From NCBI GenBank assembly GCA_048937405.1, contig JBHLNF010000001.1:96001-160000 (forward strand): DNA of 64,000 nucleotides. Direction: 5' to 3'. The notes below the pieces were generated by a model that was not told where the DNA came from, made no database searches, and saw nothing but the letters and a program-made list of their open reading frames with translations. This document shows positions 37,659 through 52,824 of this stretch, one piece after another (position 1 is the first letter of the stretch; each line of letters opens with the position of its first letter). This stretch comes from Promethearchaeota archaeon. Its GTDB lineage: Archaea; Asgardarchaeota; Lokiarchaeia; Sigyniarchaeales; SOKP01. The position numbers were made by a program, and so were the translations under genes.

Positions 37659-40448
37659 ATGGTTGATTATAACGCAGAAAAAATCGAGAAAAAATGGCAA
37701 CAAAAATGGGAAAAAGATAAAATTTTTGAAGTTCAAGTAGATTCAGGGAAAAAAAAATATTATGTTTTAGAGATGTATCCTTATCCGTCTGGAAAACTTC
37801 ATATGGGGCACCTGAGAAATTATACTATAGGAGATTGCTATGCTAGATTTAAAAGGATGAATGGTTTTAATGTTCTTTATCCCATGGGTTATGATTCGTT
37901 TGGTATGCCTGCAGAGAATGCAGCAATTGATCATGGTGCTAATCCTGAAGAATGGACTAACAAAAATATAAAGAAAATGAAAAATCAGCAAAAAAGAATC
38001 GGACTTTCATACGACTGGACACGGGAGGTATATAGTCATAATCCAAATTATTATAAATGGGATCAATGGTTTTTTTTAAAGATGCTAGAAAAGGGATTAG
38101 CGTATAAACAAGAAAGCTATGTTAATTGGTGTCCTAAATGTGCTACGGTTCTAGCAAATGAGCAAGCTCAAGGAGGAAAGTGCTGGAGATGTAATACAAT
38201 TGTTGACCAGAAGTTTTTAACGCAATGGTTTCTTAAGATAAGAGATTATGCAGATGAATTGCTCGAGGGTTTAAATCTTGTTGATTGGCCTGAAAAAGTT
38301 AAGATTATGCAACAGAATTGGATTGGAAGATCAGAGGGTACAATAATAAAATTCCCTATTGATGAAGAAAAAAGAACTATAGATATATTTACAACTAGAC
38401 CTGATACATTATATGGTGTAACCTTTATGGTTTTTGCTCCCGAACATCCTTGGGTTCGAGAATGGGTGATTGGAACGGAATATGAGAATAGTTTTAATAA
38501 ATTATATGATGAGGTAATGCATCAAGATAAATTTGAACGAACTGATATTGAAATAACAAAGAAAGGAATGTTTATTGGAAAATATGCGGTAAATCCAATT
38601 AACAGTGAAAAAATTCCTATTTTCATAGGTAATTTTGTAATTTATGAGTATGGAGCAGGTGCTGTCATGGCAGTTCCAGCACATGACCAGAGAGATTTTG
38701 AATTCGCTAAAGAATACGATGTTCCAATCAAGATTGTAATTCAACCACATGACTATGAATTAAATATTACCAAAATGACTCGTGCATATGAAAGCGATGG
38801 TATCCTAGTAAACTCAGGAGAATTCAATGGCATGGAGAATAGATCTGCTATTAATAAAATAACTGAAAAATTAAATGAACTTGATATGGGATATGCTACT
38901 ATAAATTACAAGTTAAGAGATTGGGGAATTTCACGTCAACGCTATTGGGGCTGTCCAATACCAATCGTATATTGTGATGAATGTGGAACGATCCCAGTCC
39001 CATATGAAGACTTGCCAGTATATTTACCAAATGATGTGATATTCACCGAAGCAGGTAATCCATTAAAATCAAGTGAAAGGTTTGTTAATACAAAATGTCC
39101 CAAATGTGGAAATGACGCAACACGTGAGACAGATACAATGGATACTTTTATTGATAGTTCTTGGTATTTCTTTGCCTATTGCGATCCCCCTTCTCTAGAA
39201 TCAGATATTCCTTATGCTAAAACTAAGGTAAATTATTGGGGTAATGTTGATCTCTATGTGGGAGGGATCGAGCATGCTATACTCCATTTGATCTACGCGA
39301 GATTCTTTACAAAAGTGGCTCGTGATTTAGGACTTCACAAATTTGATGAGCCCTTCCAGAAATTATTAACTCAGGGGATGATTAATAAAGCACACCCATA
39401 TTGCCCTAAATGTAATACTTTTCTTATGAAAGCTGATTTAGAAGAGATGAAATGTAGAAAATGTGGAAGTAATGATCTTATTCAAAAATCTGTTAAAATG
39501 AGTAAAAGTTATGGAAATACAGTAGATCCGGGGGAAATTATTGGAAAATATGGAGCAGATGCAGCAAGATTTTTTATATTATTTGGAGCAAGCCCTGAAT
39601 CAGGATTAGAATGGAATGATGAGGGGGTCAATTTTGCTAATAAATTTATAAGAAATTTCTTTCATTTGTTAGCTACTCCAATTCAAAATAAAAGAAATAA
39701 AAGAAGTATTAGTGATGATCTAATTATATATAATTTGTATAAGACCATTAAATTAGTTTCTGAATACATTAACAGAATTGCGATTCGAGACGCTCTTAAT
39801 TATATTATACAATTCGTCTCGGAGTTAACAAAGTATAAAGAGGAAGGAGTAATGGAAAAAATCTTTGAAGAATGTAGAGAAAAATTATTAATTCTTTCAC
39901 ATCCCTTTGTTCCGCACGTTACAGAAGAAATCTGGGAATTAATTGGAAAAGATAGATTTCTAAGTATAACTCTTTGGCCAACTTATAATAATGATCTCCT
40001 CAATGTTGAAAATGATTATAAATGGAATTTATTAAACAACACTATTGATGACATCAAAAGTATTAAATTAGCAACAAAAATCAATGATATAAAAAAAACT
40101 ATAATTATAACGGCCACTGATTGGAAATATAAATTTTATTCACAATTAATGATATTAATTGAAGAAACAAAGGATCAAGGAGAGATCATGAAAGAATTGA
40201 TGAAAAATGGCGATTTAAAAATTCACAGTAAATTTATCAGTCAAACAACTACTAAGATTCTCAAAAATATTGGAAAGTATTCCAAACACCATATTGATAT
40301 ATCTGATGAAAATCAATTTTTTAATGAAATAAAACCTCTGATCAAAAAAAGATTTAATTGTAATGTAGATGTTATAGTAGAAGTTAAGTCTGAACATAAA
40401 AAAGCATCTCAAGCATTACCAGGACGCCCTGCTATAGTTTTAGAATAA
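37659..40448 (+). CDS. leuS: Leucine-tRNA ligase (bacterial-type core, archaeal-type C-terminal domain)
   Basis: YVLEMYPYPSGKLHMGH, FTTRPDTLYG, GAGAVMAVPAHDQRD, SRQRYWG, GGIEHA, KMSKS, C-terminal ALPGRPAIVLE. Confidence 0.97.
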   Translation: MVDYNAEKIEKKWQQKWEKDKIFEVQVDSGKKKYYVLEMYPYPSGKLHMGHLRNYTIGDCYARFKRMNGFNVLYPMGYDSFGMPAENAAIDHGANPEEWTNKNIKKMKNQQKRIGLSYDWTREVYSHNPNYYKWDQWFFLKMLEKGLAYKQESYVNWCPKCATVLANEQAQGGKCWRCNTIVDQKFLTQWFLKIRDYADELLEGLNLVDWPEKVKIMQQNWIGRSEGTIIKFPIDEEKRTIDIFTTRPDTLYGVTFMVFAPEHPWVREWVIGTEYENSFNKLYDEVMHQDKFERTDIEITKKGMFIGKYAVNPINSEKIPIFIGNFVIYEYGAGAVMAVPAHDQRDFEFAKEYDVPIKIVIQPHDYELNITKMTRAYESDGILVNSGEFNGMENRSAINKITEKLNELDMGYATINYKLRDWGISRQRYWGCPIPIVYCDECGTIPVPYEDLPVYLPNDVIFTEAGNPLKSSERFVNTKCPKCGNDATRETDTMDTFIDSSWYFFAYCDPPSLESDIPYAKTKVNYWGNVDLYVGGIEHAILHLIYARFFTKVARDLGLHKFDEPFQKLLTQGMINKAHPYCPKCNTFLMKADLEEMKCRKCGSNDLIQKSVKMSKSYGNTVDPGEIIGKYGADAARFFILFGASPESGLEWNDEGVNFANKFIRNFFHLLATPIQNKRNKRSISDDLIIYNLYKTIKLVSEYINRIAIRDALNYIIQFVSELTKYKEEGVMEKIFEECREKLLILSHPFVPHVTEEIWELIGKDRFLSITLWPTYNNDLLNVENDYKWNLLNNTIDDIKSIKLATKINDIKKTIIITATDWKYKFYSQLMILIEETKDQGEIMKELMKNGDLKIHSKFISQTTTKILKNIGKYSKHHIDISDENQFFNEIKPLIKKRFNCNVDVIVEVKSEHKKASQALPGRPAIVLE

Positions 40449-40499
40449 TTATAGGATTTTTAAATTTTTTTTCTTTTGCCTGCTAATTTATATTCATTA

Positions 40500-41078
40500 T
40501 TATTTATTTACGTATTCGATGTTAATTATAAGACTATAATCCTTACTTTGATTAAGATTTATTTTTGAAACCTTTCCATACCCTATTTGAAGTTTAAATG
40601 AACTTTTTAAGGGAATTTTTAATAAATAAGATAAGATTGAGCGGATTACTCCCGAATGAGTAATGATGCCCACTTTTTTATGACCTTTTTCGATTATATC
40701 TTCAAAAAATCTACAAGATCTCCTATATAGATCAAGAAACGATTCACCATTAGGACATGGTTTGTTTATAAAATCCTTTGTCCATTCTTGAAATTTAACT
40801 CTATTTATTAAATTCCATTTTTTTAACTCCCATTCACCAAAATCCATTTCAAGTAGGCGTTTATCTATTATTGGTGTTGTAGTGGATAATTTTTCTGAAA
40901 GCAAAGTACATCTTTTCAATGGACTTGAGTAAAAAACCATCTGAGGAGAAAAGGGCAATTTTTTTTTAAGTTCTTTAAGTTCATGTTCAAAAGAATCTGC
41001 AATATCTACATCAGATTGACCGTAACACACATCATTATCCAATTTTACATTAGTATGTCGAATAAGATATATATCCAT
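40500..41078 (-). CDS. cobC: Alpha-ribazole/adenosylcobalamin phosphatase (histidine phosphatase)
   Basis: LIRHT, CYGQSD, YSSPLKRC, EMDFGEWE, THSGVIR; cob cluster context. Confidence 0.82.
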   Translation of the reverse strand: MDIYLIRHTNVKLDNDVCYGQSDVDIADSFEHELKELKKKLPFSPQMVFYSSPLKRCTLLSEKLSTTTPIIDKRLLEMDFGEWELKKWNLINRVKFQEWTKDFINKPCPNGESFLDLYRRSCRFFEDIIEKGHKKVGIITHSGVIRSILSYLLKIPLKSSFKLQIGYGKVSKINLNQSKDYSLIINIEYVNK

Positions 41079-41127
41079 ACTTTAATCAATATAAGAAAAA
41101 TTTTTTTTGTTATATGTATTTATATTA

Positions 41128-41769
41128 TCACTTAATTCTATTGTTAAATTTTTTCAATTGATAAAAATCATCGATTGTGTTAATATTGAACAATAACTCT
41201 TCCTGTTCGCTAATAAAAATTGCTTGGTCAAGTTCTGGTTGTCCTATTAAGCGACCATCTATTATATTAATTCCTAGTGGTACTAAATTATTCTGTTTAT
41301 CATCAGATTGGAAAATTATTGTTGGTTTTAATCCATATTGACTAAATAATTTAATCTCTGCCATAACAGAAAGTGCTGGTCTACTTAATATAAAATATTT
41401 ATTGATAATCTCGTCGAGAATCTTAGGTTTAATTAACGGGATATCGGCTGCGATCGTTATGACAACCTCAAGATTTAATTTTTTTATTACAAATAATAAA
41501 TCTGAGTGGTAATTAATACCAGGAGTTTCTATCAATATAATTGACATTTTTTTTTTCTCGAGGACAGATTTCGTCTGTGGAGTGAATGGAGAGAGTGCAA
41601 TAATTACTTTATTGATATTTTTCGCGTTTAATGTCGCCTCAATGGCATATTCAATCATAAATCTATTATTAAATTGAAGTAATAATTTTTCTTGATATTT
41701 AGACTTAACTTTATCAAAATTAAACCGTTCACCTTTACCTCCTGCCATAATTATCGCTGGTATTTGCAT
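41128..41769 (-). CDS. cobY: GTP:adenosylcobinamide-phosphate guanylyltransferase (archaeal type)
   Basis: IMAGGKGERF..EK, ADIPL, GINI, FNINTIDD; adjacent to cobS. Confidence 0.85.
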   Translation of the reverse strand: MQIPAIIMAGGKGERFNFDKVKSKYQEKLLLQFNNRFMIEYAIEATLNAKNINKVIIALSPFTPQTKSVLEKKKMSIILIETPGINYHSDLLFVIKKLNLEVVITIAADIPLIKPKILDEIINKYFILSRPALSVMAEIKLFSQYGLKPTIIFQSDDKQNNLVPLGINIIDGRLIGQPELDQAIFISEQEELLFNINTIDDFYQLKKFNNRIK

Positions 41770-41797
41770 AATTTAGTCTCAAAATAAAATAAATACT

Positions 41798-42649
41798 TTA
41801 AATAAATCTCAAAGAATGGAATATCAACAATAATATTAATATGAATAGTCTCGTAATCTCATTTAAAGCTCCAAGACAATCACCAGTAAGACCACCGAAA
41901 TTTTGATAAGATAAAATTAATACAATAATTAAAGACAGAAGAGTCCCTATGACGAAAATTGTAAAGATTAAAATAGATTGGAGTAAATTCCAAGGCGAAA
42001 TCCCGTTTATTGGAATAAATGTAAACTTAAAAATAAGTATATCATGATATAATAAAATATAATAGGTTCTAATTAATAAAGTGAAATATATTAAAATAAT
42101 CGATAAAATTAATGAGAGAAACATATGTTTTTTCATATTTTTTTGGATAAATAGATCAGCCATCCTAGTTTTAGCAGATTTTCCAATAGAACAGGCAACT
42201 ACCATATTGAATTTAGCACCAATTTCACTCAACATTAAAGATATTAGAATAATATTCATTGAGTAAGAGATGGTTATTCCAGTTAGTATTAATATTATAA
42301 AACCTAGTGTAAAACCTCCTGCCCCTATAGTTGACTCGTGCATTACTTCTTTCTTCCGCTCAGGAGGACCTGATGCCATTAAACCATCTCCAAAATCAAT
42401 TAAACCATCAGTATGATGAATACCTGTCATTAATAGTAGTAATCCTAGGACAATGAACCCCACTATTAAAGACGGAAGAATACTGAATAAAATTAGACTT
42501 ATAATGCTAGATATTAATCCAAGTACGAATCCTACAAAAGGGAATAACCAAATATATGGTGCGATATCTTCTTGAATATCAACTTTTCCTCTAATAGGAA
42601 ATCTAGTTAAAAAAGAAAAGCAATTTTTAATTTTGTTTAGAATTCTCAA
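41798..42649 (-). CDS. cobS: Cobalamin (5'-phosphate) synthase
   Basis: FSFLTRFP, TGIHHTDGLIDFGDG, FGGLTGDCLGALNE; polytopic. Confidence 0.93.
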   Translation of the reverse strand: MRILNKIKNCFSFLTRFPIRGKVDIQEDIAPYIWLFPFVGFVLGLISSIISLILFSILPSLIVGFIVLGLLLLMTGIHHTDGLIDFGDGLMASGPPERKKEVMHESTIGAGGFTLGFIILILTGITISYSMNIILISLMLSEIGAKFNMVVACSIGKSAKTRMADLFIQKNMKKHMFLSLILSIILIYFTLLIRTYYILLYHDILIFKFTFIPINGISPWNLLQSILIFTIFVIGTLLSLIIVLILSYQNFGGLTGDCLGALNEITRLFILILLLIFHSLRFI

Positions 42650-42655
42650 TTCTCA

Positions 42656-42838
42656 TTACCTCCTTGCTCCTAATACTCTCTTAAGTGCATCAGTATCACA
42701 TTGAACTATAGAAGATCGTACTTTTTTTGCTTGTTTTATATTACCATAATTAGAAATAATGCTAATGTCGTTCTCGCTAAAAAAGTCATTCAAATTTGGG
42801 ATATAACTATTATACCATTTTACATTCATGATAACCAC
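42656..42838 (-). pseudogene. Short 60-aa ORF between cbiB and cobS; possible internally deleted gene remnant
   Basis: Starts 3 nt after the cbiB stop, and its last codons contain the GGAGG RBS of cobS. No recognisable domain, so identity is unproven. Confidence 0.3.
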
Positions 42839-42841
42839 AAT

Positions 42842-43921
42842 TTAAAATGTAAAAATCAAAAACATTATTAAAATAATAATTATAGAAAGAATTACTATAA
42901 ATAATAGAGCTGCTAATCGAACAATTCTAAAAGTTGTTCTAATATCTTCTGGTCTAAGCGTTTTATTGGAAATTCCTAACTTATAAGATCCTATTTTCTC
43001 AAGTTGAACATTTAATAATCCTGCCATAGTACCCATTGTCCATCCTCCATTAACGCTTTCTGTATGATTTTTATCTGATTTTAAAATCTTCCATGCATTT
43101 TTCACATCTTTTTTCAAAATTTTGCCGGCTAATAATAATAGTAATACAGTAAGACGTGTGGGGAAAAAATTGGAAAGATCATCCATTCTTGCTGAAAACC
43201 ATCCAATATCTATATTTTCAGAATCTTTATATCCCACAATACTATCAGCAGTATTGATAATGCGGAAAATATAAGCGGAGGGTATTCCTAAGAACAACCA
43301 GAAAACATGATGGTGAATATAAGTAAAAAAACTTGCTCCTAATAAATTTCCAATTAGAAAAAACCAAAATACACTGGTAACTGCATCAGTAGAACTTTCA
43401 GCTATAACTTCAACAGCAGCCGAAATTATATGAGAATTATCAAGTGTTTCAGTATCTCGGCGAACTATAAAAGATAGCTCTTTTTTTGCTTTTTCTATAT
43501 CACCATGTTTTAGATGCTCTCCAATAGGAATTGTGGTATCTCCTAAATTTTTGATTGCAAATGACCATTTTAAAATAAAGCCAAAAATGAATGAAATAAG
43601 GAGAATATCGAGGAAATTAATATTATTTAAACTAGAAGAATCCCAAATTTTCCATATCCACCAAATAAAGACCTGAACAAGAAATAGTGGTATGCAAAAT
43701 ATTAAAAAAGCAAATACTAATAGAAAAACCCCAAAAATTTTATCCAAAATTCTTTTATCACATTTCAATCTTAGTTTTAACCAGTTAATTACATTACCGA
43801 TTATATTTACAGGATGATATTTTAAGTGGGGATCTCCAATTATAAAATCGATAATAACAGAGAAAAATATTGTCAAAATAACTAAAAGAATGAAATAAGA
43901 TGGAAAAAGCGCGATATCCAA
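42842..43921 (-). CDS. cbiB: Adenosylcobinamide-phosphate synthase
   Basis: GDP..HPV, IVRRDT, VEVIAES, RIINTADSIVGY, GWFSARMDD, NGGWTMGTMAG. Confidence 0.93.
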   Translation of the reverse strand: MDIALFPSYFILLVILTIFFSVIIDFIIGDPHLKYHPVNIIGNVINWLKLRLKCDKRILDKIFGVFLLVFAFLIFCIPLFLVQVFIWWIWKIWDSSSLNNINFLDILLISFIFGFILKWSFAIKNLGDTTIPIGEHLKHGDIEKAKKELSFIVRRDTETLDNSHIISAAVEVIAESSTDAVTSVFWFFLIGNLLGASFFTYIHHHVFWLFLGIPSAYIFRIINTADSIVGYKDSENIDIGWFSARMDDLSNFFPTRLTVLLLLLAGKILKKDVKNAWKILKSDKNHTESVNGGWTMGTMAGLLNVQLEKIGSYKLGISNKTLRPEDIRTTFRIVRLAALLFIVILSIIIILIMFLIFTF

Positions 43922-43930
43922 TTATGACAC

Positions 43931-45448
43931 CTATATATTTACTAATTTTTTAATTTCTTGAAGATTTATACTTTTTAATACAGTATTAGCATACTTCTGT
44001 ATGTTCTCCTCTACTATACTTTTGTAAATTGTCTTTTTTTTTTTTCTCTTGACCCCTTTTCTCCTATATATATGTTTAATGAATCTTTCCCTAAAATCAT
44101 CATTATCCCATAATCCATGAATATAACAACCAAAAACATTTTTATTTTTATTAATTGCTCCAATAAAACTGTTAACGGATTTTACATCAGAGTTTATTAT
44201 TCTTAACAAGGGCATTGCTCCAGCTTCATATTTAGTTTTTCCCATATGTATTTCATATCCATTAATTTTTTGACTATTGAGGAAAGGTAACCCAATAAAC
44301 TCTGCTAGTATTTGTTTTGTTATCTTATTATAATCTAAAAATTCAGTTTGAATAGGTAATAATCCTAATCCTTCAAATTCTCCAATAGAGTCACTTTCAA
44401 TCTTATTGTCTATTACTTTTCTTCCTAATATTTGATACCCTCCACACACACCAATTATTAAAGTTCCAACTTGGTTTAATTGTTTTAATTTGTCAGAAAA
44501 GCCACTCTCTTTCATCCATTTCAAGCTTTCTACTGTATTTTTAGTTCCTGGTATAATAATAACATCAGAATTATCCAGTTGCTCTGGAAGAGAAACATAG
44601 GATATATGGATATCTTCCTCCCAATTTAATACTTCAAAGTCAGTAAAATTAGAAATTTTTGGTAAATTAATAACCTTAATATCTAAGAATCCACCGCCTT
44701 CACTTTTTTCCATAGAAAGTGAATCTTCAGCAGGTATTTTTAAATTAGATAAATAGGGTATTACACCACTACACTTAAGACCTAATAATTTTTCTAAGTC
44801 TTCTATTCCTGACTTTAAAAGAGTTATATCTCCACGGAATTTATTGATAACAAACATTTTTATTAGATTTTGTTCCTCCATACTAAGCAATTTGATTGTT
44901 CCATAAATTGATGCAAAAACTCCACCTCGATCAATATCGGCAATTAATATCACAGGGGCATCAGCTAACTTTGCAACAAACATATTTGCTATTTCCTTAT
45001 CCATTAAGTTTATTTCAGCGGGGCTACCAGCCCCCTCAATTATAACAATATCATAATTTTCTCTAAGATAATTGAGAGCGCTTTTTATATAAGGTTTAAA
45101 TTTTGGAACATATTTGGTGTAATATTCTTTTACCTTTGTATCTGCATAAGGTTTTCCCATAAGTATTATTTGAGAAGTTGCATCTCCTTTAGGTTTTAAT
45201 AAAATAGGATTGAACTCTGCAATAACTTCTGACCTAGAAGCTAAAGCTTGCACAACTTGAGAACGAGCAACTTCTTTTCCATCTTTAGTGACGAACGAGT
45301 TTAAGGACATATTTTGTGCTTTAAAGGGTGCAACTTTATACCCCATATCACTAAAAATTCTACATAAAGCAGTGACTAACATTGATTTACCTGCATGAGA
45401 AGTTGTTCCCTGGATCATTAAAACTTTCCCGAGCATTCCTACAACCAT
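43931..45448 (-). CDS. cobQ: Cobyric acid synthase (CobQ/CbiP)
   Basis: QGTTSHAGKS, PFKAQNMSLNS, EGAGSPAEINL, DIDRGG, ISNFTDF, GVCGGYQILG, YIHGLW. Confidence 0.96.
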   Translation of the reverse strand: MVVGMLGKVLMIQGTTSHAGKSMLVTALCRIFSDMGYKVAPFKAQNMSLNSFVTKDGKEVARSQVVQALASRSEVIAEFNPILLKPKGDATSQIILMGKPYADTKVKEYYTKYVPKFKPYIKSALNYLRENYDIVIIEGAGSPAEINLMDKEIANMFVAKLADAPVILIADIDRGGVFASIYGTIKLLSMEEQNLIKMFVINKFRGDITLLKSGIEDLEKLLGLKCSGVIPYLSNLKIPAEDSLSMEKSEGGGFLDIKVINLPKISNFTDFEVLNWEEDIHISYVSLPEQLDNSDVIIIPGTKNTVESLKWMKESGFSDKLKQLNQVGTLIIGVCGGYQILGRKVIDNKIESDSIGEFEGLGLLPIQTEFLDYNKITKQILAEFIGLPFLNSQKINGYEIHMGKTKYEAGAMPLLRIINSDVKSVNSFIGAINKNKNVFGCYIHGLWDNDDFRERFIKHIYRRKGVKRKKKKTIYKSIVEENIQKYANTVLKSINLQEIKKLVNI

Positions 45449-45808
45449 CTATTTTTTAATATTTTCCAATATTTTAGAACGTAATTTTAATAATTCTTCT
45501 CTTGAAATTTCTTCAAATTTTTTTTTATAACTTATCAAACCTTCAAGGATTAATTCTGAATTTTTCATTTTATGTATAAAAAGACAATTAGAACATGCCC
45601 AAATAGGTTTTTGTGTATTAGAGTTTATCTTTTCAAATCCTCTAGTATCAATTTCATTACAAGGATAAAAAGGGCAATAGCAGAATGTACAATCTTCTAA
45701 TCCATCATGACATGGTAAATAATCACATGATTTATCAAGACCAGTTAAACTTTTTCTTTTTATTGCTCTATTTATCAAAATCTTACCTTTTTCCAGCATC
45801 TCAGTCAT
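45449..45808 (-). CDS. Cysteine-rich small-domain (zf-like) protein associated with cobamide genes
   Basis: CDYLPCH..DCTFCYCPFYPC..WACSNCLFIH. Confidence 0.8.
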   Translation of the reverse strand: MTEMLEKGKILINRAIKRKSLTGLDKSCDYLPCHDGLEDCTFCYCPFYPCNEIDTRGFEKINSNTQKPIWACSNCLFIHKMKNSELILEGLISYKKKFEEISREELLKLRSKILENIKK

Positions 45809-45828
45809 CTCTTTAACTATTTACTTGA

Positions 45829-46950
45829 TTATATTATAGATTTTAAAGTTTGAATTAATTTTATATTAGACTCTCGATCTTTTACTGAAATCCTTATATA
45901 ATAATTATCCAAATATTTAAAATTAGAACAATCTCTTATTAGAATATTCTTTTCTAATAAAATCTTCTTTAATTCATGAGATCTAATTCCAGTATTTTCA
46001 ATATTGATTAATATAAAGTTAGTGCGAGTAGTGAATAATTTTAGTTTTGGTATTCTACTTAATTCGGAAATTAGAAAATTTCTTTCTTTATTAACAAAAG
46101 AAATCGAACTTTTTATAAAATTATTATAATATAACATTTTTTCGGCAAATTTTTGACCAATACAATTAACTGACCATAAATTTTGAGCTTTCTTCATATG
46201 TTTTATTAAAACTAAATCCCCTACCCCAAATCCTATTCGAAGTCCTGGAATTCCAAAAAATTTCGTAAAACTGCGACTAACAAAGAGATTTTTATATTTA
46301 TTAATCTTATTAATAAATGAATTTTCTTCACCTGTGAATTCAATAAAAGCTTCATCAAGAAAGACCAAGATATTTCTATCTAATGAAAATTTTATTATCT
46401 CTTCAATATCATTAAAATTTTCCAAATTCCCATTTGGATTGTTAGGATTACAAATAAATATAGCTTTTGTTTGGGGATCAATTCTTGACATAATTGGATG
46501 TTTCTCAAGCTTGAAATTATTCTGAAGATCCCTGGGGATATTGATTATATCTCCAAGATTTTTTCGAATAGCCCACTCATATTCAGAAAAGGTAGGTTGA
46601 GAAATTATTATATTATCATTGGGCTCAATAAATATATCACAAAAATTAGTAATTAATTCCATGGAACCAGCTCCAATAATAATATTTTCTAATTTAATTC
46701 TATTACTAAAGTAACTTACTAATCTTTCTTTTAGTATTAAAGATTCTGAATCAGGATATTTTTGGATTTCTGATAAACTTTCCTTAAACCATTCAGAATA
46801 CTTATTAGAAGCATTTAATGGATTAATATTTATACTAAAGTCTATTATTTCAGATTTACCTTTAAATATTTTTTTCTTATATATTTCACCTCCATGTCTT
46901 TTATGGATTAAATCTTTCTTTTTTTTGTTTATAATTTTATCAAAATCCAT
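45829..46950 (-). CDS. cobD: L-threonine-O-3-phosphate decarboxylase (PLP, HisC-like)
   Basis: HGG, DFSININP, CNPNNPNG, DEAFIEF, RSFTKFFGIPGLRIG, IRDCSNF. Confidence 0.88.
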   Translation of the reverse strand: MDFDKIINKKKKDLIHKRHGGEIYKKKIFKGKSEIIDFSININPLNASNKYSEWFKESLSEIQKYPDSESLILKERLVSYFSNRIKLENIIIGAGSMELITNFCDIFIEPNDNIIISQPTFSEYEWAIRKNLGDIINIPRDLQNNFKLEKHPIMSRIDPQTKAIFICNPNNPNGNLENFNDIEEIIKFSLDRNILVFLDEAFIEFTGEENSFINKINKYKNLFVSRSFTKFFGIPGLRIGFGVGDLVLIKHMKKAQNLWSVNCIGQKFAEKMLYYNNFIKSSISFVNKERNFLISELSRIPKLKLFTTRTNFILINIENTGIRSHELKKILLEKNILIRDCSNFKYLDNYYIRISVKDRESNIKLIQTLKSII

Positions 46951-46965
46951 TATAATTAATCCTTT

Positions 46966-48210
46966 TTATTCTGATATTTTCTGAAAAAGCGTTTCTAAAT
47001 TATTTACAACCATAACATTACTTTTATTAATTAAATTTAGGTAAACATTTGTTGCTAACCCTCCAGTAAAATCTCGATTTTCAATTGGTTCTAATTCATA
47101 AATAATAATTTTTTTTTCGCATTCATTTAGAATATGTAAATTCTCTATATTATTATAACCAAAAGGCATATTTCCCAGAATTATAAGATCTACGTTTTCT
47201 AATACTTTCCTTAATTTATTCTTAGATTCTTCAGAAATTGGAGAGAATGGTGCTTCTGAAATAATCCTATAATTTAGTTCATTTGCTAATGAAAAATCAT
47301 CATCTAAAACATTCAAAATACCAATACTAACTATATTATTTTTTAATTTTGGTAGAATTTCTAATGCAGATCCACCTCCAGCTATTACATGAATCCTTTT
47401 TCCTTCTTTTAATTTACATTTTCTTGAAATATGAGATCTATCTTTTAATGGAGTAATATAAATAGAATTTGTGAATAAATTTTTTCGAATTGCAATTTCT
47501 ATATTATACACAGATAGAATATTTTCCTTTGTTATTGTTTCTTCAATTGATCCAAAAGCTTCAATATGCCCAGCATTTAATAGAATGATCTTATCACAAA
47601 ATAAAGTTGCTAAATTTAAATCATGCAGAACGATTATAACGATTAGTCCATCCTTGACGTAATTTTTTAACATTTCCATTAATTCAATTTTATAGTTAAG
47701 ATCTAACTGCGATGTTGGCTCATCTAATAAAAGAACTTCACTTTCTTGAGCAATTGCCCTACTAATAATAACTTTTTGTTGTTCTCCACCACTCAATTCA
47801 TTAAATCCTCTGTGTTGTATTTCAGTTAAATTAAATTTATTTAAAATTTGATCAACAACATTAATATCCTTTATAGATTCTCTTGAAAAGCGTCCTACAT
47901 GTGAATATCTTCCCATTTTAATAATTTCTCTTACTGAAAAATCAAAATTAATTGATGTTGATTGAGGAACTATTGCTATTTTTTTCGCTATTTCACGTAT
48001 CATTAATTTGTTAATATTATCTTCATCAATTAAGACTTTTCCATAATTAGTTTTTAAGATCCCACTAAGAATTTTTAAAAAAGTAGATTTTCCACACCCA
48101 TTTGGGCCTATTATTCCATAAAGATAACCCTTTTCAAACTGCATAGATATATTGTTTAAAACTTCTTTTGTCCCATATTGAAAACTAATATTTTCACATT
48201 TAATAGTCAT
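46966..48210 (-). CDS. btuD: Corrinoid ABC transporter ATPase with C-terminal extension
   Basis: GPNGCGKST, LSGGEQQ, LLLDEPT, VLHDLN; C-terminal HVIAGGGS domain. Confidence 0.85.
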   Translation of the reverse strand: MTIKCENISFQYGTKEVLNNISMQFEKGYLYGIIGPNGCGKSTFLKILSGILKTNYGKVLIDEDNINKLMIREIAKKIAIVPQSTSINFDFSVREIIKMGRYSHVGRFSRESIKDINVVDQILNKFNLTEIQHRGFNELSGGEQQKVIISRAIAQESEVLLLDEPTSQLDLNYKIELMEMLKNYVKDGLIVIIVLHDLNLATLFCDKIILLNAGHIEAFGSIEETITKENILSVYNIEIAIRKNLFTNSIYITPLKDRSHISRKCKLKEGKRIHVIAGGGSALEILPKLKNNIVSIGILNVLDDDFSLANELNYRIISEAPFSPISEESKNKLRKVLENVDLIILGNMPFGYNNIENLHILNECEKKIIIYELEPIENRDFTGGLATNVYLNLINKSNVMVVNNLETLFQKISE

Positions 48211-49241
48211 TACCCTAATTCACCTTTTCTTTTTTTTTTAACAATTAAATAGAGAAAAAATGGTCCACCCATCAACGCAGTGAATATTCCAACGGGTATT
48301 TCGAGAGGTGCTATCAATGTTCGAGCGAAAATGTCTGCCCATAATAATAATAATCCTCCAATTAATGCACTATAGGGAATTAATTTTTGGTTATTACTTC
48401 CAATTAGTAATCTTATAGTATGGGGAACAATTAATCCAATAAAGCCAATACTACCACAAAATGCCACAGCTGTGGAAGTTAATAATGTCATTAAAAATAA
48501 AATTATTTTTTTTGATTGCTCAACATTAACACCCATTGACTGCGCCGTTTCATCTCCAAATACCATTAAATTTAAATCACGACCATAAAAAAACAATATT
48601 ATTGTGCTTGGAACCATAACAAGTAACACGATATAAAATTCAATCCAAGTTATGCCCCATAAACTTCCCATTAAATAAATAAGAATTGTATGAGCTTTAT
48701 CTTCGGAAAAAAATAAGATAAAACTGGTAAGGGCAGAAAAAAAGAAAGATATGGCAATCCCCGCTAATAAAAGAACAGTTGTTGATATTCTATATGTTGT
48801 TTTAGATAATTCATATACAATGGAAATTGATAATATAGCAAATAGAAACGCAACAAGTGGAATTGTTAATAAACTAAAAAAGCCAAGCACAAGTACTACC
48901 ATTAGGGCGGTCCCAAATCCTGCTGCTGCTGAAACACCAATAATATAAGGATCAGCAAGAGGATTCTTTAATATTCCCTGAGCGGCTACTCCCGCAACTC
49001 CTAGCATTGCACCAATAACAACAGCCATTAATACTCTTGGCATTCGTATAGTTAAAATGATAGTTTCTTCTCCCGCATCATAAGTTCTTGGAATATTAAA
49101 TCCAATTTTATTCATTATAATAATCCATACTTTAGGAAATTCGATTTCGACAGAGCCAATTGAAATTGCAAATATTACACTAAAAAATAAGAAAATTGAA
49201 AGAAAAAGAGGTAAAAAAATATTAATAGCTTTTTTTTTCAT
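48210..49241 (-). CDS. btuC: Corrinoid ABC transporter permease (FecCD family)
   Basis: RMPR, NPLADPYIIGVS, GSIGFIGLIVPH, EIPVG..GGPFF. Confidence 0.88.
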   Translation of the reverse strand: MKKKAINIFLPLFLSIFLFFSVIFAISIGSVEIEFPKVWIIIMNKIGFNIPRTYDAGEETIILTIRMPRVLMAVVIGAMLGVAGVAAQGILKNPLADPYIIGVSAAAGFGTALMVVLVLGFFSLLTIPLVAFLFAILSISIVYELSKTTYRISTTVLLLAGIAISFFFSALTSFILFFSEDKAHTILIYLMGSLWGITWIEFYIVLLVMVPSTIILFFYGRDLNLMVFGDETAQSMGVNVEQSKKIILFLMTLLTSTAVAFCGSIGFIGLIVPHTIRLLIGSNNQKLIPYSALIGGLLLLWADIFARTLIAPLEIPVGIFTALMGGPFFLYLIVKKKRKGELG

Positions 49242-49283
49242 ATTCTTTTAAATTAAAGATTTGGTTCTTTTTTTAGATTATTT

Positions 49284-50237
49284 TTAATCCAATATCCCTG
49301 GATATAGAGCTAATGTCATGTTAATTAACGCATCAATTATTCGAGGTCCTGCTCTTGTGAACTTGTCATCATCGCATATATATATTCGATTATTTATTAC
49401 TGCATTAACAACATCATAACCACTTCTTTCAGCAATGTTGCTTTCATAATAATCTCTTCCCATTGCAGTAATAAAAATTACTTCAGGATTATTGCTTATA
49501 ACCGATTCATGACTCACTATTGGATATTCCTCTTGTATATCACCAAAGATGTTTATACCCCCAGCTTTTTTAATCATATCATCAATGAAAGATTTAGCCC
49601 CCGCTACTTTTGGAGTTTCCCATACCTCAAAATAACAGGTTAACTTGTCACTATTATTTATTTGTGATGTTTCAGCTGTAATTAAATTCATTCTAGCTTT
49701 CAAGGAATCCAAAAAGTCTTTACTCTTCTCTTTTTCATCGATTAGCCACCCAATATCCTCAATATTCTTAAAAATATCACTGATTGAATTCGCTATGAGA
49801 ATAACAACCGTGATATTATAATAATCTAATTGATCAATTATATCTGGATCATCCCTTGCTCCTATGACTAAATCGGGCTCTAAACTTACTATAATTTCAA
49901 TATTTGGAGTAGAAAAACCTCCTATACTTGTTTTATTTTTTGTCTCCTCTGGATAATTGCAGTAGCTGGTAACAGCAACTAATTTATCTTCTGCTTCAAC
50001 AGCATATAATATTTCTGTTATGGCAGGGGCCATAGATATAATTTTTTCAGGATATTCTGGAACTTCTACCTCTCTACCTAGTGAATCCTCAAATAATCTT
50101 ATTTCATTTCCTTCTGGATTACAAATATCTCCAACAATAATATTAACTATGATTAAACTTGATATGAGTAATACTATTGTCAAACTGAGTAATACAATTT
50201 TAAATATACCTTTCATTTTTTTTCTCTTTATTTTCAT
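49284..50237 (-). CDS. btuF: Corrinoid ABC transporter substrate-binding protein
   Basis: IISMAPAITEIL, YCNYP, PNIEIIVSLEPDLV, RAGPR; N-terminal anchor. Confidence 0.85.
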   Translation of the reverse strand: MKIKRKKMKGIFKIVLLSLTIVLLISSLIIVNIIVGDICNPEGNEIRLFEDSLGREVEVPEYPEKIISMAPAITEILYAVEAEDKLVAVTSYCNYPEETKNKTSIGGFSTPNIEIIVSLEPDLVIGARDDPDIIDQLDYYNITVVILIANSISDIFKNIEDIGWLIDEKEKSKDFLDSLKARMNLITAETSQINNSDKLTCYFEVWETPKVAGAKSFIDDMIKKAGGINIFGDIQEEYPIVSHESVISNNPEVIFITAMGRDYYESNIAERSGYDVVNAVINNRIYICDDDKFTRAGPRIIDALINMTLALYPGILD

Positions 50238-50245
50238 TAAGAATT

Positions 50246-50911
50246 TTAAGAATACTCAAGAATATTCAAATACCAATAATTATCTCTTAAAATTGAGTTA
50301 TGTTGTTTAATATTTATTTTCTCTTTGAATAAGGGACAATCAGTTACAAATGTATGAAATTCACCTAACTCCCCACATGTATTAATTTGATTATCTTTAA
50401 GATATTCAAAATAACTTTTATCTAAAAATTGACCAAGCCATTTTTTATTAATTAAATTTGCTTTTAAGCTAACAATAATTGCTTTAAATCCCACTTCAAT
50501 TAACTCAAGGTAAATGTCATCGGCTGAGTATCCCCAAAGCGGTTCAACAGCTTGGACTCCTAATTCTCCACATACATTTTCTGCCCATTTCTTATGTTTT
50601 TGAATTTCAAACTCTTCTAAATAAATATCTCCAAAAATTATCCCCTTTAAACTATTTTTAATTAATGGCTTAATAATTCTTTTGAACTCTTGTGTATAAT
50701 TATTCCAACTGATTTCTTGTTGTATAAGTGGTATATGCATAGATTTTGCTTGTAATTGTATTAGTTCAGTATTTATATTATGGGTATCAATCTTCTTAGA
50801 TTCTTTAGAAACTAAATTTATTAGATGAGATATATTATATCCTTCACTAATTGCCTTGAAACATGCAAAGCAGCAATCTTTTCCACCGCTCCAAGAAACT
50901 AAATAGCTCAT
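50246..50911 (-). CDS. Diphthine-ammonia-ligase-like PP-loop ATP pyrophosphatase (ATP_bind_4 family)
   Basis: SWSGGKDC, FGDI, EPLW, CGELGEFHTFV..PLF. Confidence 0.85.
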   Translation of the reverse strand: MSYLVSWSGGKDCCFACFKAISEGYNISHLINLVSKESKKIDTHNINTELIQLQAKSMHIPLIQQEISWNNYTQEFKRIIKPLIKNSLKGIIFGDIYLEEFEIQKHKKWAENVCGELGVQAVEPLWGYSADDIYLELIEVGFKAIIVSLKANLINKKWLGQFLDKSYFEYLKDNQINTCGELGEFHTFVTDCPLFKEKINIKQHNSILRDNYWYLNILEYS

Positions 50912-50936
50912 TTTTATATTTTTATTTTGAATTAAT

Positions 50937-50958
50937 TTATAGGAAATTTATCCTATAA
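50937..50958. promoter_or_regulatory. Palindromic candidate operator, copy 1: TTATAGG-N8-CCTATAA
   Basis: TTATAGGAAATTTATCCTATAA, 25 nt upstream of the leftward cob/btu operon start. Confidence 0.65.
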
Positions 50959-50997
50959 AAAATTATTTAATAAAGTAATGTACTAATGTTTTTAAAG

Positions 50998-51019
50998 TTA
51001 TAGGTTAAGTTTCCTATAA
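50998..51019. promoter_or_regulatory. Palindromic candidate operator, copy 2: TTATAGG-N8-CCTATAA
   Basis: TTATAGGTTAAGTTTCCTATAA; its reverse complement matches copy 1 at 20/22 positions. Confidence 0.65.
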
Positions 51020-51183
51020 TTTTTAAATAAAATTTAATTAATTCATTTAACGACATTTGAATGTCGTTTTGTTCGAATGATTTAAAATATCTAAAAATAA
51101 GGAGATTTCTCAATAAATGAGAATACATCTTCAATAGCAATTTAAAAAATTTAAAAGAAACTCTGTTAAAATAGCGAATATTA

Positions 51184-52278
51184 ATGAAAGAAATTATAAG
51201 AATAGGTAAAAAGGAAAAAATTGAAGATTTTATATCAAAAATAGAAGGAAAAAAACCTCTGTTTATATGTGTTATAGGAAATACTGAAACTGCAAAAATT
51301 CCTAGCATCTCTGCAGCGGGTGCTAATCCAGATATTACAGATTATACACCAGCTGCTGATATGGAATACTTAATATATGAGAAATGCAAATCAATTGAAG
51401 GTGTTCCAATTACACCTGATGGAATACCAACTCCTGCCTTGATTACTAAAGCTTCAATAGATTTAGCAGAAATATCCTTATTAGTTGCATCTGGTGGACT
51501 AAATATACATCCTCAAACACCATTTTTAGAATTTGGAGGGCAACCAGGAAAAAATATTTCAAATGGACTTGCTTTAAATAAAGTTTCAAGTGTATTTGAA
51601 AGAGCTAAAATATTAGGAGAGCAAATATCAAAAGCAGTAGATTATCTTGTAATTGGAGAAAGTGTTGCAGGAGGAACTACGACTGCTTTAGGAGTTTTAA
51701 CAGCCATGGGATTTGATGCATCAAATAAAATTAGCAGTAGTTTACCCAAGAATCCAATTGGTTTAAAGATTAAAACTGTAAAATTGGGACTTAAGAACGC
51801 TGGTATAGTTGCTGGAGATTTAAAAAATGAACCCTTAAAAGCGATTAAATTATTAGGAGATCCTATGCAACCTGTACATGCAGGTATAGTTATAGGGGCT
51901 GCAGAAAGAATCCCTGTATTATTAGCAGGGGGGACTCAAATGAGTGCTGTTTTAGCAATAGTAAATTCCATTAATCCATTGATAAGTAAAAATTTAGCTA
52001 TAGGGACAACTAGATGGATAATTGAAGATAAACAAGCTGATTTGAAGGGGCTTATCGATCAAATTAATCCAGATATTCCAATCTTAGGCGCAAACCTTAA
52101 CTTTAATCAAATGAAATATGATGGTTTAAAGGCATATGAACAGGGAGTAGTTAAAGAAGGCGTTGGTGCTGGAGGGTCTGTCATTGCTAGTATATTATCA
52201 ACTAAAGGTATGATATCAATTGATCAAATTCATCAAAAAATTAAAGATAACTATAGGAGAATAGTTTTAAATGAATAA
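51184..52278 (+). CDS. cobT: Archaeal-type nicotinate-nucleotide:lower-base phosphoribosyltransferase
   Basis: TETAKIPSISAAG, PTPALIT, GESVAGGTTTA, GDPMQ, LAGGTQM, VKEGVGAGG. Confidence 0.88.
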   Translation: MKEIIRIGKKEKIEDFISKIEGKKPLFICVIGNTETAKIPSISAAGANPDITDYTPAADMEYLIYEKCKSIEGVPITPDGIPTPALITKASIDLAEISLLVASGGLNIHPQTPFLEFGGQPGKNISNGLALNKVSSVFERAKILGEQISKAVDYLVIGESVAGGTTTALGVLTAMGFDASNKISSSLPKNPIGLKIKTVKLGLKNAGIVAGDLKNEPLKAIKLLGDPMQPVHAGIVIGAAERIPVLLAGGTQMSAVLAIVNSINPLISKNLAIGTTRWIIEDKQADLKGLIDQINPDIPILGANLNFNQMKYDGLKAYEQGVVKEGVGAGGSVIASILSTKGMISIDQIHQKIKDNYRRIVLNE

Positions 52279-52660
52279 AAATACAATGAAAAAAGAATCT
52301 TTACAAAAAATATTCATAATAATAGCAGATCGGTGGAAATTGAATTTTTATTCAAAATTTATGAGTATTTTAGATGAAACAAAGAATCAGGGAGAAATAA
52401 TGAAGAGACTTATGATAGAGAGTGAGTTTAAAAAACATAGTAAAATCATAAACCAAAGTGTCAATAAGATTCTTAAAAATGTGGGAAAGTACCCAAAATT
52501 GACTCTTACTACGAATGAAGAATTTCATTCTTTTGATGAAATAAAACCAGTTTTAGAGAAAAAATTCAATTCTAAAGTAGAGATTATGTATGAACAAGAC
52601 TCAAAGGAACAAAAAGCAGCCAACGCGCTTCCTGGTAAACCTGCAATCGTTATTTTTTAA
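52271..52660 (+). pseudogene. Isolated, diverged copy of the LeuRS C-terminal domain (remnant or stand-alone protein)
   Basis: Ungapped alignment to the last ~119 aa of the 37659..40448 protein, 58 identities by hand count (~49%). No catalytic domain. Confidence 0.8.
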
Positions 52661-52824
52661 ATATTTTTATTGATATATCAAAATTATTTCATTTAATGAG
52701 CTAAAATTCTACATGGTTTTATTAACTTAAGATTAATTTAAATATTATAAATTTAAATATGTTAAAAGTTGTTAGAAAAGCATTGAATCAATTAAAATAT
52801 TCAAGAATAGTATTTTCAAAATAG

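What the first reader, a model, noticed from the sequence alone, without database searches (positions are those of the whole stretch)
40089..52660. Cobamide island bracketed by a duplicated leuS 3' end: footprint of insertion at an essential gene
Seen: the last ~119 codons of leuS (40089-40448) recur as a separate ORF (52301-52660 within 52271..52660), same strand, ungapped, ~49% aa identity by hand count. Everything between the copies is cobamide transport/biosynthesis, and no integrase or transposase is present. Established: elements integrating in a gene's 3' end often supply a replacement end and displace the original. Inference: the ~12-kb B12 cluster arrived with a relative's leuS end by recombination, leaving the old end downstream. 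The copy is still an open frame overlapping the cobT stop, so it may be expressed as a stand-alone tRNA-binding domain.
Basis: partly seen in the sequence, partly recalled or inferred. Interest (0 to 1): 0.75.

Follow-up and report, generated by a model that had tools for sequence, protein, structure and literature searches.

The report
Displaced leuS end beside B12 island
In this Lokiarchaeial genome the tail of a leucyl-tRNA synthetase gene was swapped for a foreign version, the old tail was left 12 kb downstream, and a vitamin-B12 salvage gene cassette sits between them; relatives show the same swap with quite different inserted genes, so the site is a recurring recombination slot.

Summary
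LeuS residues 810-928 and the 129-aa ORF align without gaps at 49% identity (E 1e-36).

The footprint reading is largely right, with corrections:
- Ten same-genus genomes show the empty site, with leuS directly followed by the 52825 gene.
- The 129-aa ORF is the native leuS end: 81% identical to the nearest relative's intact end, 48% to its own gene's end.
- The resident gene is a mosaic. The breakpoint is at about residue 631-648, not 810. About 280 codons are foreign and about 150 native codons are gone.
- This leuS is not the only LeuRS. A canonical archaeal one lies on another contig.
- The same foreign end occurs in at least seven other Lokiarchaeial (Promethearchaeota) loci. They carry other cargo and native remnants of 390, 67, 22 or 0 codons.
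- The foreign end is younger than the species. No integrase was found in any cargo.

So this is a recombination slot with C-terminal displacement, as in rhs tips or e14/icd. The cob cassette is one of at least six cargos and probably came in a later step. The intact ORF is most likely a young relic, not a free tRNA-binding domain. It is a new variant of a known kind, of moderate interest.

The parts
37659..39548 (+). leuS, native 5' part (residues 1-630): bacterial-type LeuRS body
   Evidence: TIGR00396 leuS_bact 959 bits over residues 4-783. 85-98% aa identity to G001 in 60-aa windows. In the tree of residues 330-630, G000 groups with G084, G081 and G072, with G001 as sister.
39549..39602 (+). 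crossover interval (residues 631-648), an invariant block after KMSKS (KYGADAARFFILFGASP)
   Evidence: Left of it the four mosaics read like G001/G003. Right of it they read like the F type and genus g22 (alignment; sliding windows).
39603..40448 (+). leuS, laterally acquired 3' part (F-type; anticodon-binding domain plus archaeal-type C-terminal domain)
   Evidence: 38-58% identity to same-genus native ends, but 88/81/77% to G084/G081/G072. It forms a clade with genus g22 (99*), apart from the native clade. AU test p 5e-64. dS is 0.30-0.58 of that of the 5' part.
40449..40503 (.). 55-bp spacer after the leuS stop, shared with G084; left boundary of the cob cassette
   Evidence: 91% identity over 55 bp to G084. 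Similarity then ends exactly at the cobC stop codon.
40500..50911 (-). cob/btu operon of 11 genes: cobC, cobY-like, cobS, cbiB, cobQ, PF04071 protein, cobD-type aminotransferase, ABC ATPase, FecCD permease, binding protein, Dph6-like
   Evidence: Pfam. TIGR03162 cobC at 166.6 bits. The same gene order is found in 7 other genomes of the order at 45-75% aa identity, never next to leuS.
50912..51183 (.). divergent promoter region of the cassette, with a palindrome pair
   Evidence: Inverted repeat 50934-50958 / 50998-51022, 88% complementary (I13). No riboswitch was found.
51184..52278 (+). cobT (archaeal type), right end of the cassette
   Evidence: TIGR00303 at 380 bits. It matches homologues over residues 1-360..363 of 364. 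It is present in only 3/54 genus genomes and 15/153 order genomes.
52271..52660 (+). displaced native leuS 3' end (remnant; residues ~801-929 of the old gene), still an open frame
   Evidence: 81% aa identity to the intact LeuS end of G001, 71% to G003, 48% to its own LeuS. It groups with G001 at 99*. DNA homology to G001 starts at about 52275. ATG 52271 is created by the junction; the native Met codon is at 52286.
52661..53694 (+). native leuS-orf289 spacer and the 289-aa gene that follows leuS in relatives
   Evidence: Colinear and conserved with G001, G003 and G072. The order leuS-orf289-TIM-fer4-trx is seen in 10 genomes.

Best explanation
The locus is a recombination slot at the 3' end of the bacterial-type leuS paralogue of a Lokiarchaeial (Promethearchaeota) genus.

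Shown:
- The last ~280 codons of leuS exist in sharply different allele classes.
- The 'F' class in G000 is phylogenetically foreign to its own 5' part. It is shared with other species at lower synonymous divergence than the rest of the gene.
- At every F-type locus with enough sequence downstream, the F end is followed by inserted DNA. At six of the seven such loci whose right side is assembled, a leftover of that genome's own leuS end follows, just upstream of the normal neighbour gene (L167 has lost it entirely).

Inferred mechanism:
- Incoming DNA carrying an F-type leuS 3' part plus cargo recombines homologously in the conserved leuS body. The last usable homology is the KMSKS block near residue 640.
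- On the other side it is joined without homology. Alternatively it integrates as a circle by a single crossover.
- The result is that the old end is displaced downstream (C-terminal displacement).
- Later arrivals reuse the same anchor and erode the remnant further.

In G000 the cargo is an 11.8-kb cobamide salvage and transport cassette, cut exactly from the cobC stop to the cobT stop. It probably replaced an earlier cargo together with remnant codons ~540-800 (inferred, about 60%). The alternative is that it arrived with the F end in one step (about 40%).

The 129-codon ORF is the still-undecayed native end, not a dedicated gene.
For: - Empty site in 10 same-genus genomes and 8 non-F metagenome contigs.
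- The remnant is 81% identical to the G001 end and 48% to its own gene's end.
- Breakpoint at residues 631-648 in all four mosaic genomes.
- The trees of residues 330-630 and 655-929 conflict. AU rejects the 5'-part clade on the 3' part (delta lnL 104, p 5e-64).
- dS(3' part)/dS(5' part) is 0.30-0.58 in six mosaic pairs, against a median of 0.98 in 28 native pairs.
- Cargo differs at F-type loci: cob cassette (G000); subtilase (G084); a 1221-aa ORF (G072, L169; inverted in G081); a 0.68-kb small ORF (L167); an intein ORF plus an HD-CE/ATPase protein (L168); other genes (L170).
- Remnant sizes are about 390, 129, 67, 22 and 0 codons.
- The remnants of G000 and G072 are not sister sequences (AU p 3e-4).
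- Remnants in L168 and L170 are a third native type, so the F end entered at least two backgrounds.
- The cob cassette has the same gene order elsewhere in 7 genomes, never beside leuS. cobT is patchy.
- G000 and G084 share 55 bp after the stop and then diverge at the cobC stop.
- No integrase by Pfam, PHROGs or PADLOC.
- The exact remnant protein is found on two contigs, from NCBI and from the Logan assemblies of public sequencing runs.
Against: - No donor with an F-type leuS directly followed by cobC was found, and no circular or free element (viral contigs gave nothing).
- The shared breakpoint coincides with the last conserved block, so it cannot separate one origin from several.
- dS values (NG86, AT-rich genes, 90-280 codons) are noisy, and the pairs are not independent.
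- The trees are quick searches with SH-aLRT support only.
- The order of events (cob cassette first or later) is not resolved by parsimony.
- The 754-aa intein-bearing ORF next to F ends in L168 and L172 has no assigned function and could be an unrecognised recombinase.
- All genomes are MAGs.
Confidence: 0.75

Rival explanations
1. One-step arrival. A single DNA fragment from a donor whose F-type leuS was followed by the cob cassette recombined in leuS near residue 640. It was joined illegitimately at native codon ~801, deleting codons ~650-800.
For: This is the simplest account of both G000 junctions and of the missing 150 codons. F ends are horizontally mobile. Each F locus has its own right junction, as independent events would give.
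Against: G084 and L167 have the closest F ends. They share 15-55 bp downstream of the stop, but have other cargo and no trace of cob genes. No sampled cob cassette lies next to leuS. Three loci keep a longer remnant with one common 5' boundary, which suggests a canonical older structure that was later trimmed.
Confidence: 0.35
2. Decayed site-specific integrative element (e14/icd type). An integrase-bearing element targeting the leuS 3' end supplied the replacement end, and the integrase has since been lost.
For: The architecture matches e14 between icd and the icdC fragment (PMC13626634). The site is used recurrently, also in another genus (G065). An unannotated 754-aa intein ORF sits next to F ends in L168 and L172.
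Against: No integrase or transposase domain was found in seven different cargos. There are no exact flanking direct repeats. The duplicated segments differ in length from 0 to about 390 codons. The replaced segment (about 840 bp) is far longer than typical att overlaps.
Confidence: 0.1
3. The 129-aa ORF is a functional free-standing tRNA(Leu)-binding domain, translationally coupled to cobT.
For: The frame is open for 129 codons in about 27% GC DNA. It overlaps the cobT stop by 8 nt. dN/dS against G001 is 0.13, like intact genes. The family-conserved C-terminal motif is retained.
Against: It is absent from all empty-site relatives. Remnants elsewhere have other lengths and carry a frameshift (G072) or stops (G081, G065, L170). 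Low dN/dS is expected if displacement was recent. ATG 52271 is a by-product of the junction. Its terminal branch is about six times longer than G001's.
Confidence: 0.12
4. Assembly or binning chimera of two co-occurring strains.
For: G000 is a MAG with 5.7% estimated contamination. The crossover lies in a conserved block where assemblers could switch strains.
Against: The right junction has only about 8 nt of microhomology, too short for an assembler to bridge. The same architecture occurs in independent MAGs and metagenome contigs from different projects. The exact remnant ORF is found on two contigs, from NCBI and from the Logan assemblies of public sequencing runs.
Confidence: 0.02

Closest known systems
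C-terminal displacement in rhs genes (Jackson et al. 2009, PMC2935791), and by recall from memory only (not searched or read here) the 'orphan' toxin tips of CdiA loci
   Same: The conserved gene body and variable 3' end have decoupled phylogenies. A laterally acquired 3' end recombines onto the body. The former end is pushed downstream and persists as a fragment. No dedicated integrase is involved. The rhs authors propose homologous recombination with circular intermediates.
   Different: Here the gene is a housekeeping-type aminoacyl-tRNA synthetase in an Asgard archaeon, not a polymorphic toxin. The cargo between the ends is unrelated accessory DNA: a B12 cassette, a protease, large unknown proteins. 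Only one remnant is kept rather than an array. No selective reason for swapping tips is evident.
Prophage e14 in E. coli icd, with the icdC C-terminal pseudogene (as described in PMC13626634)
   Same: An inserted element lies between a gene whose 3' end it supplies and the displaced original 3' fragment. The gene stays functional.
   Different: e14 uses a site-specific integrase and a short duplicated end of near-identical sequence. Here no integrase was found, the replaced part is about 280 codons at about 50% aa identity, and the remnant length varies from locus to locus.
Homology-facilitated illegitimate recombination (definition in PMC3240628)
   Same: [quoted passage not shown] This fits the G000 structure: an anchor in leuS, an ATAAAAAT microhomology at the cobT/remnant joint, and loss of the recipient codons in between.
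   Different: HFIR has been shown experimentally only in bacteria, after transformation or conjugation. The uptake route in Lokiarchaeia is unknown. The longer remnants (from residue ~540, overlapping the native part of the resident gene) fit a single-crossover circle better than classical HFIR.
Archaeal cobamide salvage / nucleotide-loop assembly clusters (CobY, CobS, CbiB, CbiP, CobD, archaeal CobT, BtuFCD)
   Same: The gene content and Pfam/NCBIfam assignments match the late pathway plus corrinoid uptake. The cassette order is conserved in 7 other genomes of the order.
   Different: The location beside leuS is unique to G000. No corrin-ring genes are in the cassette. A Dph6-like ATP-pyrophosphatase heads the operon. 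The gene that follows cobT in four other cassettes is missing here.

Membership tests
C-terminal displacement (rhs-type) | Gene body and 3' end have conflicting phylogenies | tested here: met
   Trees and 75/76. AU p 5e-64. P0034 has an F2 3' part, but its 5' part is sister to P0027/P0029 (F1).
C-terminal displacement (rhs-type) | The former end persists downstream of the new end as a dissociated fragment | tested here: met
   Remnants in G000, G072, G081, G084, L168 and L170. There is a single remnant at each locus, not an array.
C-terminal displacement (rhs-type) | The new end is acquired laterally | tested here: met
   The F end clusters with genus g22 (99*). Its dS is 0.30-0.58 of that of the 5' part.
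C-terminal displacement (rhs-type) | Circular or episomal intermediates carrying tips | tested here: inconclusive
   No viral-contig hit. A free F2-type 185-196-aa ORF exists in G078:C59, but in a chromosomal context. The common 'M-HLIYARFF' remnant boundary in three loci is suggestive.
Site-specific integrative element at a gene's 3' end (e14/icd type) | Integrase/recombinase gene in the insert | tested here: not met
   None by Pfam, PHROGs or PADLOC in the G000, G084, G072, G081, G065, L168, L170 and L172 inserts.
Site-specific integrative element at a gene's 3' end (e14/icd type) | Short, near-identical direct repeats (attL/attR) at both ends | tested here: not met
   The only flanking repeat is the diverged leuS end itself (72 nt at 74%).
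Site-specific integrative element at a gene's 3' end (e14/icd type) | Replacement 3' end supplied, original end displaced | tested here: met
Homology-facilitated illegitimate recombination | One junction inside a homologous anchor | tested here: met
   The crossover interval is the invariant block at residues 631-648.
Homology-facilitated illegitimate recombination | Other junction without homology (microhomology only) | tested here: inconclusive
   The cobT-end/remnant joint shares about 8 nt (ATAAAAAT), which is not significant in 27% GC DNA.
Cobamide salvage / nucleotide-loop cluster | CobS, CbiB, CobQ/CbiP, CobT, CobC, CobY-type transferase, CobD-type decarboxylase, BtuFCD-type transporter | tested here: met
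   Pfam. TIGR00303 and TIGR03162 above cut-off. CobY and CobD are assigned only at domain level.
Free-standing aaRS-derived tRNA-binding domain protein | Conserved as a separate gene in relatives | tested here: not met
   Absent from 10 empty-site genomes. Remnant lengths vary and some carry stops or a frameshift.
Free-standing aaRS-derived tRNA-binding domain protein | Purifying selection after separation; expression | tested here: inconclusive
   dN/dS is 0.13 against G001, but the time since displacement is unknown. Expression cannot be tested with these tools.

The most novel reading that the evidence does not exclude
Lokiarchaeia host an integrase-free mobile module whose homology arm is a LeuRS C-terminal-half gene. 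It starts at a fixed ATG placed before HLIYARFF, near residue 540. By a single crossover with chromosomal leuS it delivers arbitrary cargo: defence-like genes, proteases, or a complete B12 salvage cassette. It swaps the synthetase's tRNA-binding end and spreads between species. This would be an archaeal, housekeeping-gene counterpart of rhs tip displacement, and direct evidence for frequent inter-species homologous recombination in Asgard archaea.
Probability: 0.3. Interest if true: 0.75.

Novelty: new variant of a known kind. Interest (0 to 1): 0.55.

Why it matters
How genes move between Asgard archaea is poorly understood. This locus gives a datable footprint with base-level junctions. It shows inter-species homologous recombination inside a synthetase gene, repeated insertion of accessory DNA at one slot, and the acquisition of corrinoid salvage. 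Corrinoid salvage is patchy in this order: cobT is present in 15 of 153 genomes. The locus also shows that the tRNA-binding end of this LeuRS is exchangeable between lineages. That bears on how a bacterial-type LeuRS body came to work with an archaeal-type C-terminal domain. The locus also offers population-genomic markers (F/N alleles, remnant length) for tracking gene flow in Lokiarchaeia.

Tried and rejected
The contexts of short database hits P0004-P0022 and of P0027-P0036 could therefore not be fetched.
- I looked for cob pseudogene traces in the G084, G072 and G081 inserts (tblastn E<=1, blastn). There were none beyond the shared 55 bp.
- I looked for leuS fragments beside the cob cassettes of 7 other genomes. 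There were none.
- I looked for att-like direct repeats, tRNA genes and a B12 riboswitch. There were none.
- A search of viral contigs for LeuRS-end carriers found nothing.
- The ESM Atlas gave nothing for the N-extein of the 754-aa intein ORF.
- I first read the shared breakpoint and the clade on residues 330-630 as one ancestral event inherited vertically. I gave that up for four reasons. The dS of the F end is half that of the 5' part. G001, which has an empty site, is the sister of G081, which is a mosaic, in the flanking genes (dS 0.2). The remnants are not sister sequences. Two different native remnant types exist.
- A classical Campbell integration of a wholly foreign fragment cannot be confirmed or excluded. 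The remnant's residues 540-645 look native-like in G072, and donor and recipient may be indistinguishable in that conserved stretch.
- A literature search found no description of this locus.


Full report
**Observation.** The window is G000:C7:96001-160000 of a 4.47-Mb, about 29% GC archaeal MAG. Titles of the nearest public records name Promethearchaeota/Lokiarchaeia MAGs.
- leuS is 37659-40448 (+), 929 aa.
- A 129-aa ORF lies at 52271-52660 (+).
- BLASTP aligns LeuS 810-928 with ORF 10-128 at 58/119 identities, ungapped, E 1e-36.
- Between the two lie the following genes:
  - cobC (TIGR03162)
  - a CobY-like nucleotidyltransferase
  - cobS
  - cbiB
  - cobQ
  - a PF04071 Cys-rich protein
  - a CobD-type aminotransferase
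  - an ABC ATPase
  - a FecCD permease
  - a binding protein
  - a Dph6-like ATP-pyrophosphatase
  - divergently transcribed, archaeal cobT (TIGR00303)
- There is no integrase, tRNA gene or riboswitch.

**Empty site.** The order lplA - radical SAM - leuS - orf289 - TIM - ferredoxin - thioredoxin, with leuS directly followed by the 52825 gene, holds in ten same-genus genomes: G001, G003, G017, G023, G004:C98, G006, G002, G011, G007 and G078. It also holds in eight non-F metagenome contigs.

**Which copy is native.**
- The 129-aa ORF is 81% identical to the C-terminal end of the intact LeuS of G001, 71% to G003 and 56-67% to other genus members. It is only 48% identical to its own genome's LeuS end.
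- DNA downstream of it, through the spacer into orf289, is colinear with G001, G003 and G072.
- In trees of residues 655-929 the ORF groups with G001 (99*), inside the clade of native ends.

**The resident gene is a mosaic.**
- Identity of G000 LeuS to G001 is 85-98% up to about residue 630. From about 650 to the end it falls to 38-58%.
- The switch lies within the invariant block at residues 631-648, just after KMSKS (window 39549-39602).
- So about 280 codons are of a different origin, not 119. Native codons ~650-800 are missing from the genome.
- The resident end ('F type') is 88, 81 and 77% identical to the ends of G084, G081 and G072, and at most 59% to all others in 399 genomes of the phylum.
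- It forms a clade (99*) nested with another genus of the family (g22), away from the native clade.
- On residues 330-630 the same four genomes sit with G001.
- Forcing that grouping on the 3' part costs 104 lnL units (AU p 5e-64).

**The site is a recurrent slot.** The F-type loci examined are these:

| Locus | Cargo after the F end | Native remnant |
|---|---|---|
| G000 | 11.8-kb cob cassette | ~129 codons |
| G084 | 4.1 kb with an 868-aa subtilase | 22 codons |
| G072, L169 | 1221-aa ORF of unknown function | residues ~540-929, split by one frameshift (shown for G072; L169 ends inside the cargo) |
| G081 | the same cargo as G072 (93% nt), inverted | 67 codons, a stop at its edge |
| L167 (closest to G000: leuS 88% nt, orf289 94% aa) | 0.68 kb with a small ORF | none |
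| L168 | 754-aa intein-bearing ORF plus an HD-CE/ATPase protein | starts at residue 539 |
| L170 (Loki's Castle sediment) | 4.7 kb of other genes | pieces, one with a stop |

- G065, in a different genus, shows an independent case. A 102-codon remnant with a TAG stop lies 1.2 kb downstream of leuS.
- No cargo holds a recognisable integrase.

**The F end is younger than the species.**
- Among the four mosaic genomes, dS of residues 655-end is 0.24-0.51, against 0.70-1.02 for residues 1-640. The ratio is 0.30-0.58.
- In 28 native pairs the median ratio is 0.98.
- Flanking genes give dS 0.45-1.2 for the same genome pairs.
- G001 (empty site) and G081 (mosaic) are close relatives in the flanks (dS 0.2).
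- The remnants of G000 and G072 are not sister sequences (AU p 3e-4).
- The remnants of L168 and L170 belong to a third type of end: 41-49% identical to both N and F types, 79% to each other.

Together these say that the F end has moved between species and displaced at least two kinds of native end. These dS estimates are noisy and the pairs are not independent. I treat this as good but not conclusive evidence.

**Junctions in G000.**
- *Left:* G000 and G084 share 55 bp after the leuS stop (91%). They then diverge exactly at the cobC stop codon.
- *Right:* homology to native leuS begins at about 52275, within the last codons of cobT. An ATAAAAAT microhomology lies at the joint. ATG 52271 is created by the joint, while ATG 52286 is the native Met codon.
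- cobT is full length relative to its homologues.
- The gene that follows cobT in four other cassettes is absent here.

The cassette is thus cut precisely from stop codon to stop codon.

**Origin of the cob cassette.**
- cobT occurs in 3 of 54 genus genomes and 15 of 153 order genomes.
- The whole cassette, in the same gene order, occurs in G057, G056, G101, G022, G084:C63, G058 and G049 at 45-75% aa identity. Its flanks there are unrelated, and it is never beside leuS.
- It is a patchy, relocating accessory module. Its donor is unsampled.

**One step or two.** Parsimony does not decide, because at least two cargo replacements are needed either way. I favour two steps (about 60:40) for two reasons.
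- The closest F haplotypes (G084, L167) lack any cob trace.
- Three loci (G072, L168, L170) keep a longer remnant with an identical 5' boundary. An ATG replaces the Leu codon before HLIYARFF, and the upstream DNA is unrelated. A remnant can only shrink.

This boundary also suggests a common mobile fragment (a 'LeuRS C-terminal half' gene) and a single-crossover mechanism like that proposed for rhs tips (PMC2935791). The alternative mechanism is homology-facilitated illegitimate recombination (PMC3240628).

**Is the ORF functional?**
- dN/dS against G001 is 0.13 (dN 0.087, dS 0.65), like intact genes. This is also expected if displacement was recent.
- Its terminal branch is about six times longer than G001's.
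- Remnants elsewhere differ in length and carry lesions.
- No relative has it as a gene.

I put a functional stand-alone domain at about 12%.

**Essentiality.**
- The window's LeuS is a bacterial-type body (TIGR00396, residues 4-783) with an archaeal-type C-terminal end (residues 611-929 match TIGR00395/PRK12300).
- G000 also encodes a canonical archaeal LeuRS of 962 aa on contig C22 (TIGR00395, 914 bits).
- Many relatives show the same second match.
- Redundancy may explain why this gene's end tolerates repeated recombination.

**Artefact check.**
- The right junction has no repeat that an assembler could bridge.
- The architecture recurs in independent MAGs and contigs from different projects.
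- The exact remnant protein is found on two contigs, from NCBI and from the Logan assemblies of public sequencing runs.

**Comparison and novelty.**
- The closest known phenomena are C-terminal displacement of rhs genes (PMC2935791) and e14 in icd with the icdC fragment (PMC13626634).
- The integrase and att tests for an e14-type element were not met.
- I found no description of this locus or of leuS-end displacement in Asgard archaea. The library searched is limited.
- I class it as a new variant of a known kind.

**Limits.**
- All genomes are MAGs.
- Trees are quick searches.
- The order of events and the transfer vehicle are inferred.

Noticed in passing
G000:C22 (L086:866-3754, minus strand): A second, canonical archaeal-type LeuRS (962 aa; TIGR00395 914 bits) is present in the same genome. 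Many relatives show the same weak second match of about 950-990 aa. These Lokiarchaeia therefore carry two LeuRS genes.
   Followed up: partly
window 37659-40448: The window's LeuRS is itself a deep domain chimera, as is its whole family. It has a bacterial-type body (TIGR00396, residues 4-783) and an archaeal-type C-terminal region (residues 611-929 match TIGR00395/PRK12300).
   Followed up: partly
window 50934-50958 and 50998-51022: A pair of palindromic sites (88% complementary, 39 nt apart) lies in the divergent promoter region between the Dph6-like/btu operon and cobT. It is a candidate operator. No B12 riboswitch was found.
   Followed up: partly
window 42662-42747 versus 43331-43506: The 190-bp cobS-cbiB spacer contains pieces 77-81% identical to an internal part of cbiB. 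This looks like a small partial duplication or pseudogene fragment inside the cassette.
   Followed up: no
L168:1141-3405 (-) and L172:1849-4116 (-): A 754/755-aa ORF sits immediately downstream of F-type leuS ends in two diverged haplotypes (66% identical to each other). It carries a LAGLIDADG intein, and its exteins match no family. Its function is unknown; it could be an element core gene.
   Followed up: partly
G078:C59:1877-2452 (L057), minus strand: A free-standing 185-196-aa ORF is an F2-type LeuRS C-terminal fragment (residues ~739-928). It lies in an unrelated chromosomal neighbourhood (ArsR-like regulator, AdoHcy hydrolase, archaeosine TGT). G078's own leuS locus is the normal empty site. 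The exact protein is seen on 9 contigs in public data.
   Followed up: partly
L059 (G065:C6) 12616-12921: In another genus (g21), a 102-codon leuS-end remnant with a TAG stop lies 1.2 kb downstream of leuS. A DUF998/Frag1 membrane protein gene sits between them, and GATase and GNAT genes lie before orf289. This is an independent use of the same slot.
   Followed up: partly
G004:C146 (L036) versus G004:C98 (L037): G004 holds two bacterial-type leuS copies. One has the normal synteny. The other is a g22-like copy on a 12-kb contig without the usual neighbours. This may be contamination (estimated at 9%) or a true second copy.
   Followed up: no
window 46966-48210: The BtuD-like ABC ATPase is 414 aa, and only residues 18-167 match PF00005. 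It has a long C-terminal extension that is conserved in the cassettes of other genomes.
   Followed up: no
L087 / G084 record title: The public record of G084 is titled 'Candidatus Odinarchaeota'. Its leuS locus and flanks are nevertheless the closest relatives of this Lokiarchaeial genome. The label is probably wrong.
   Followed up: no
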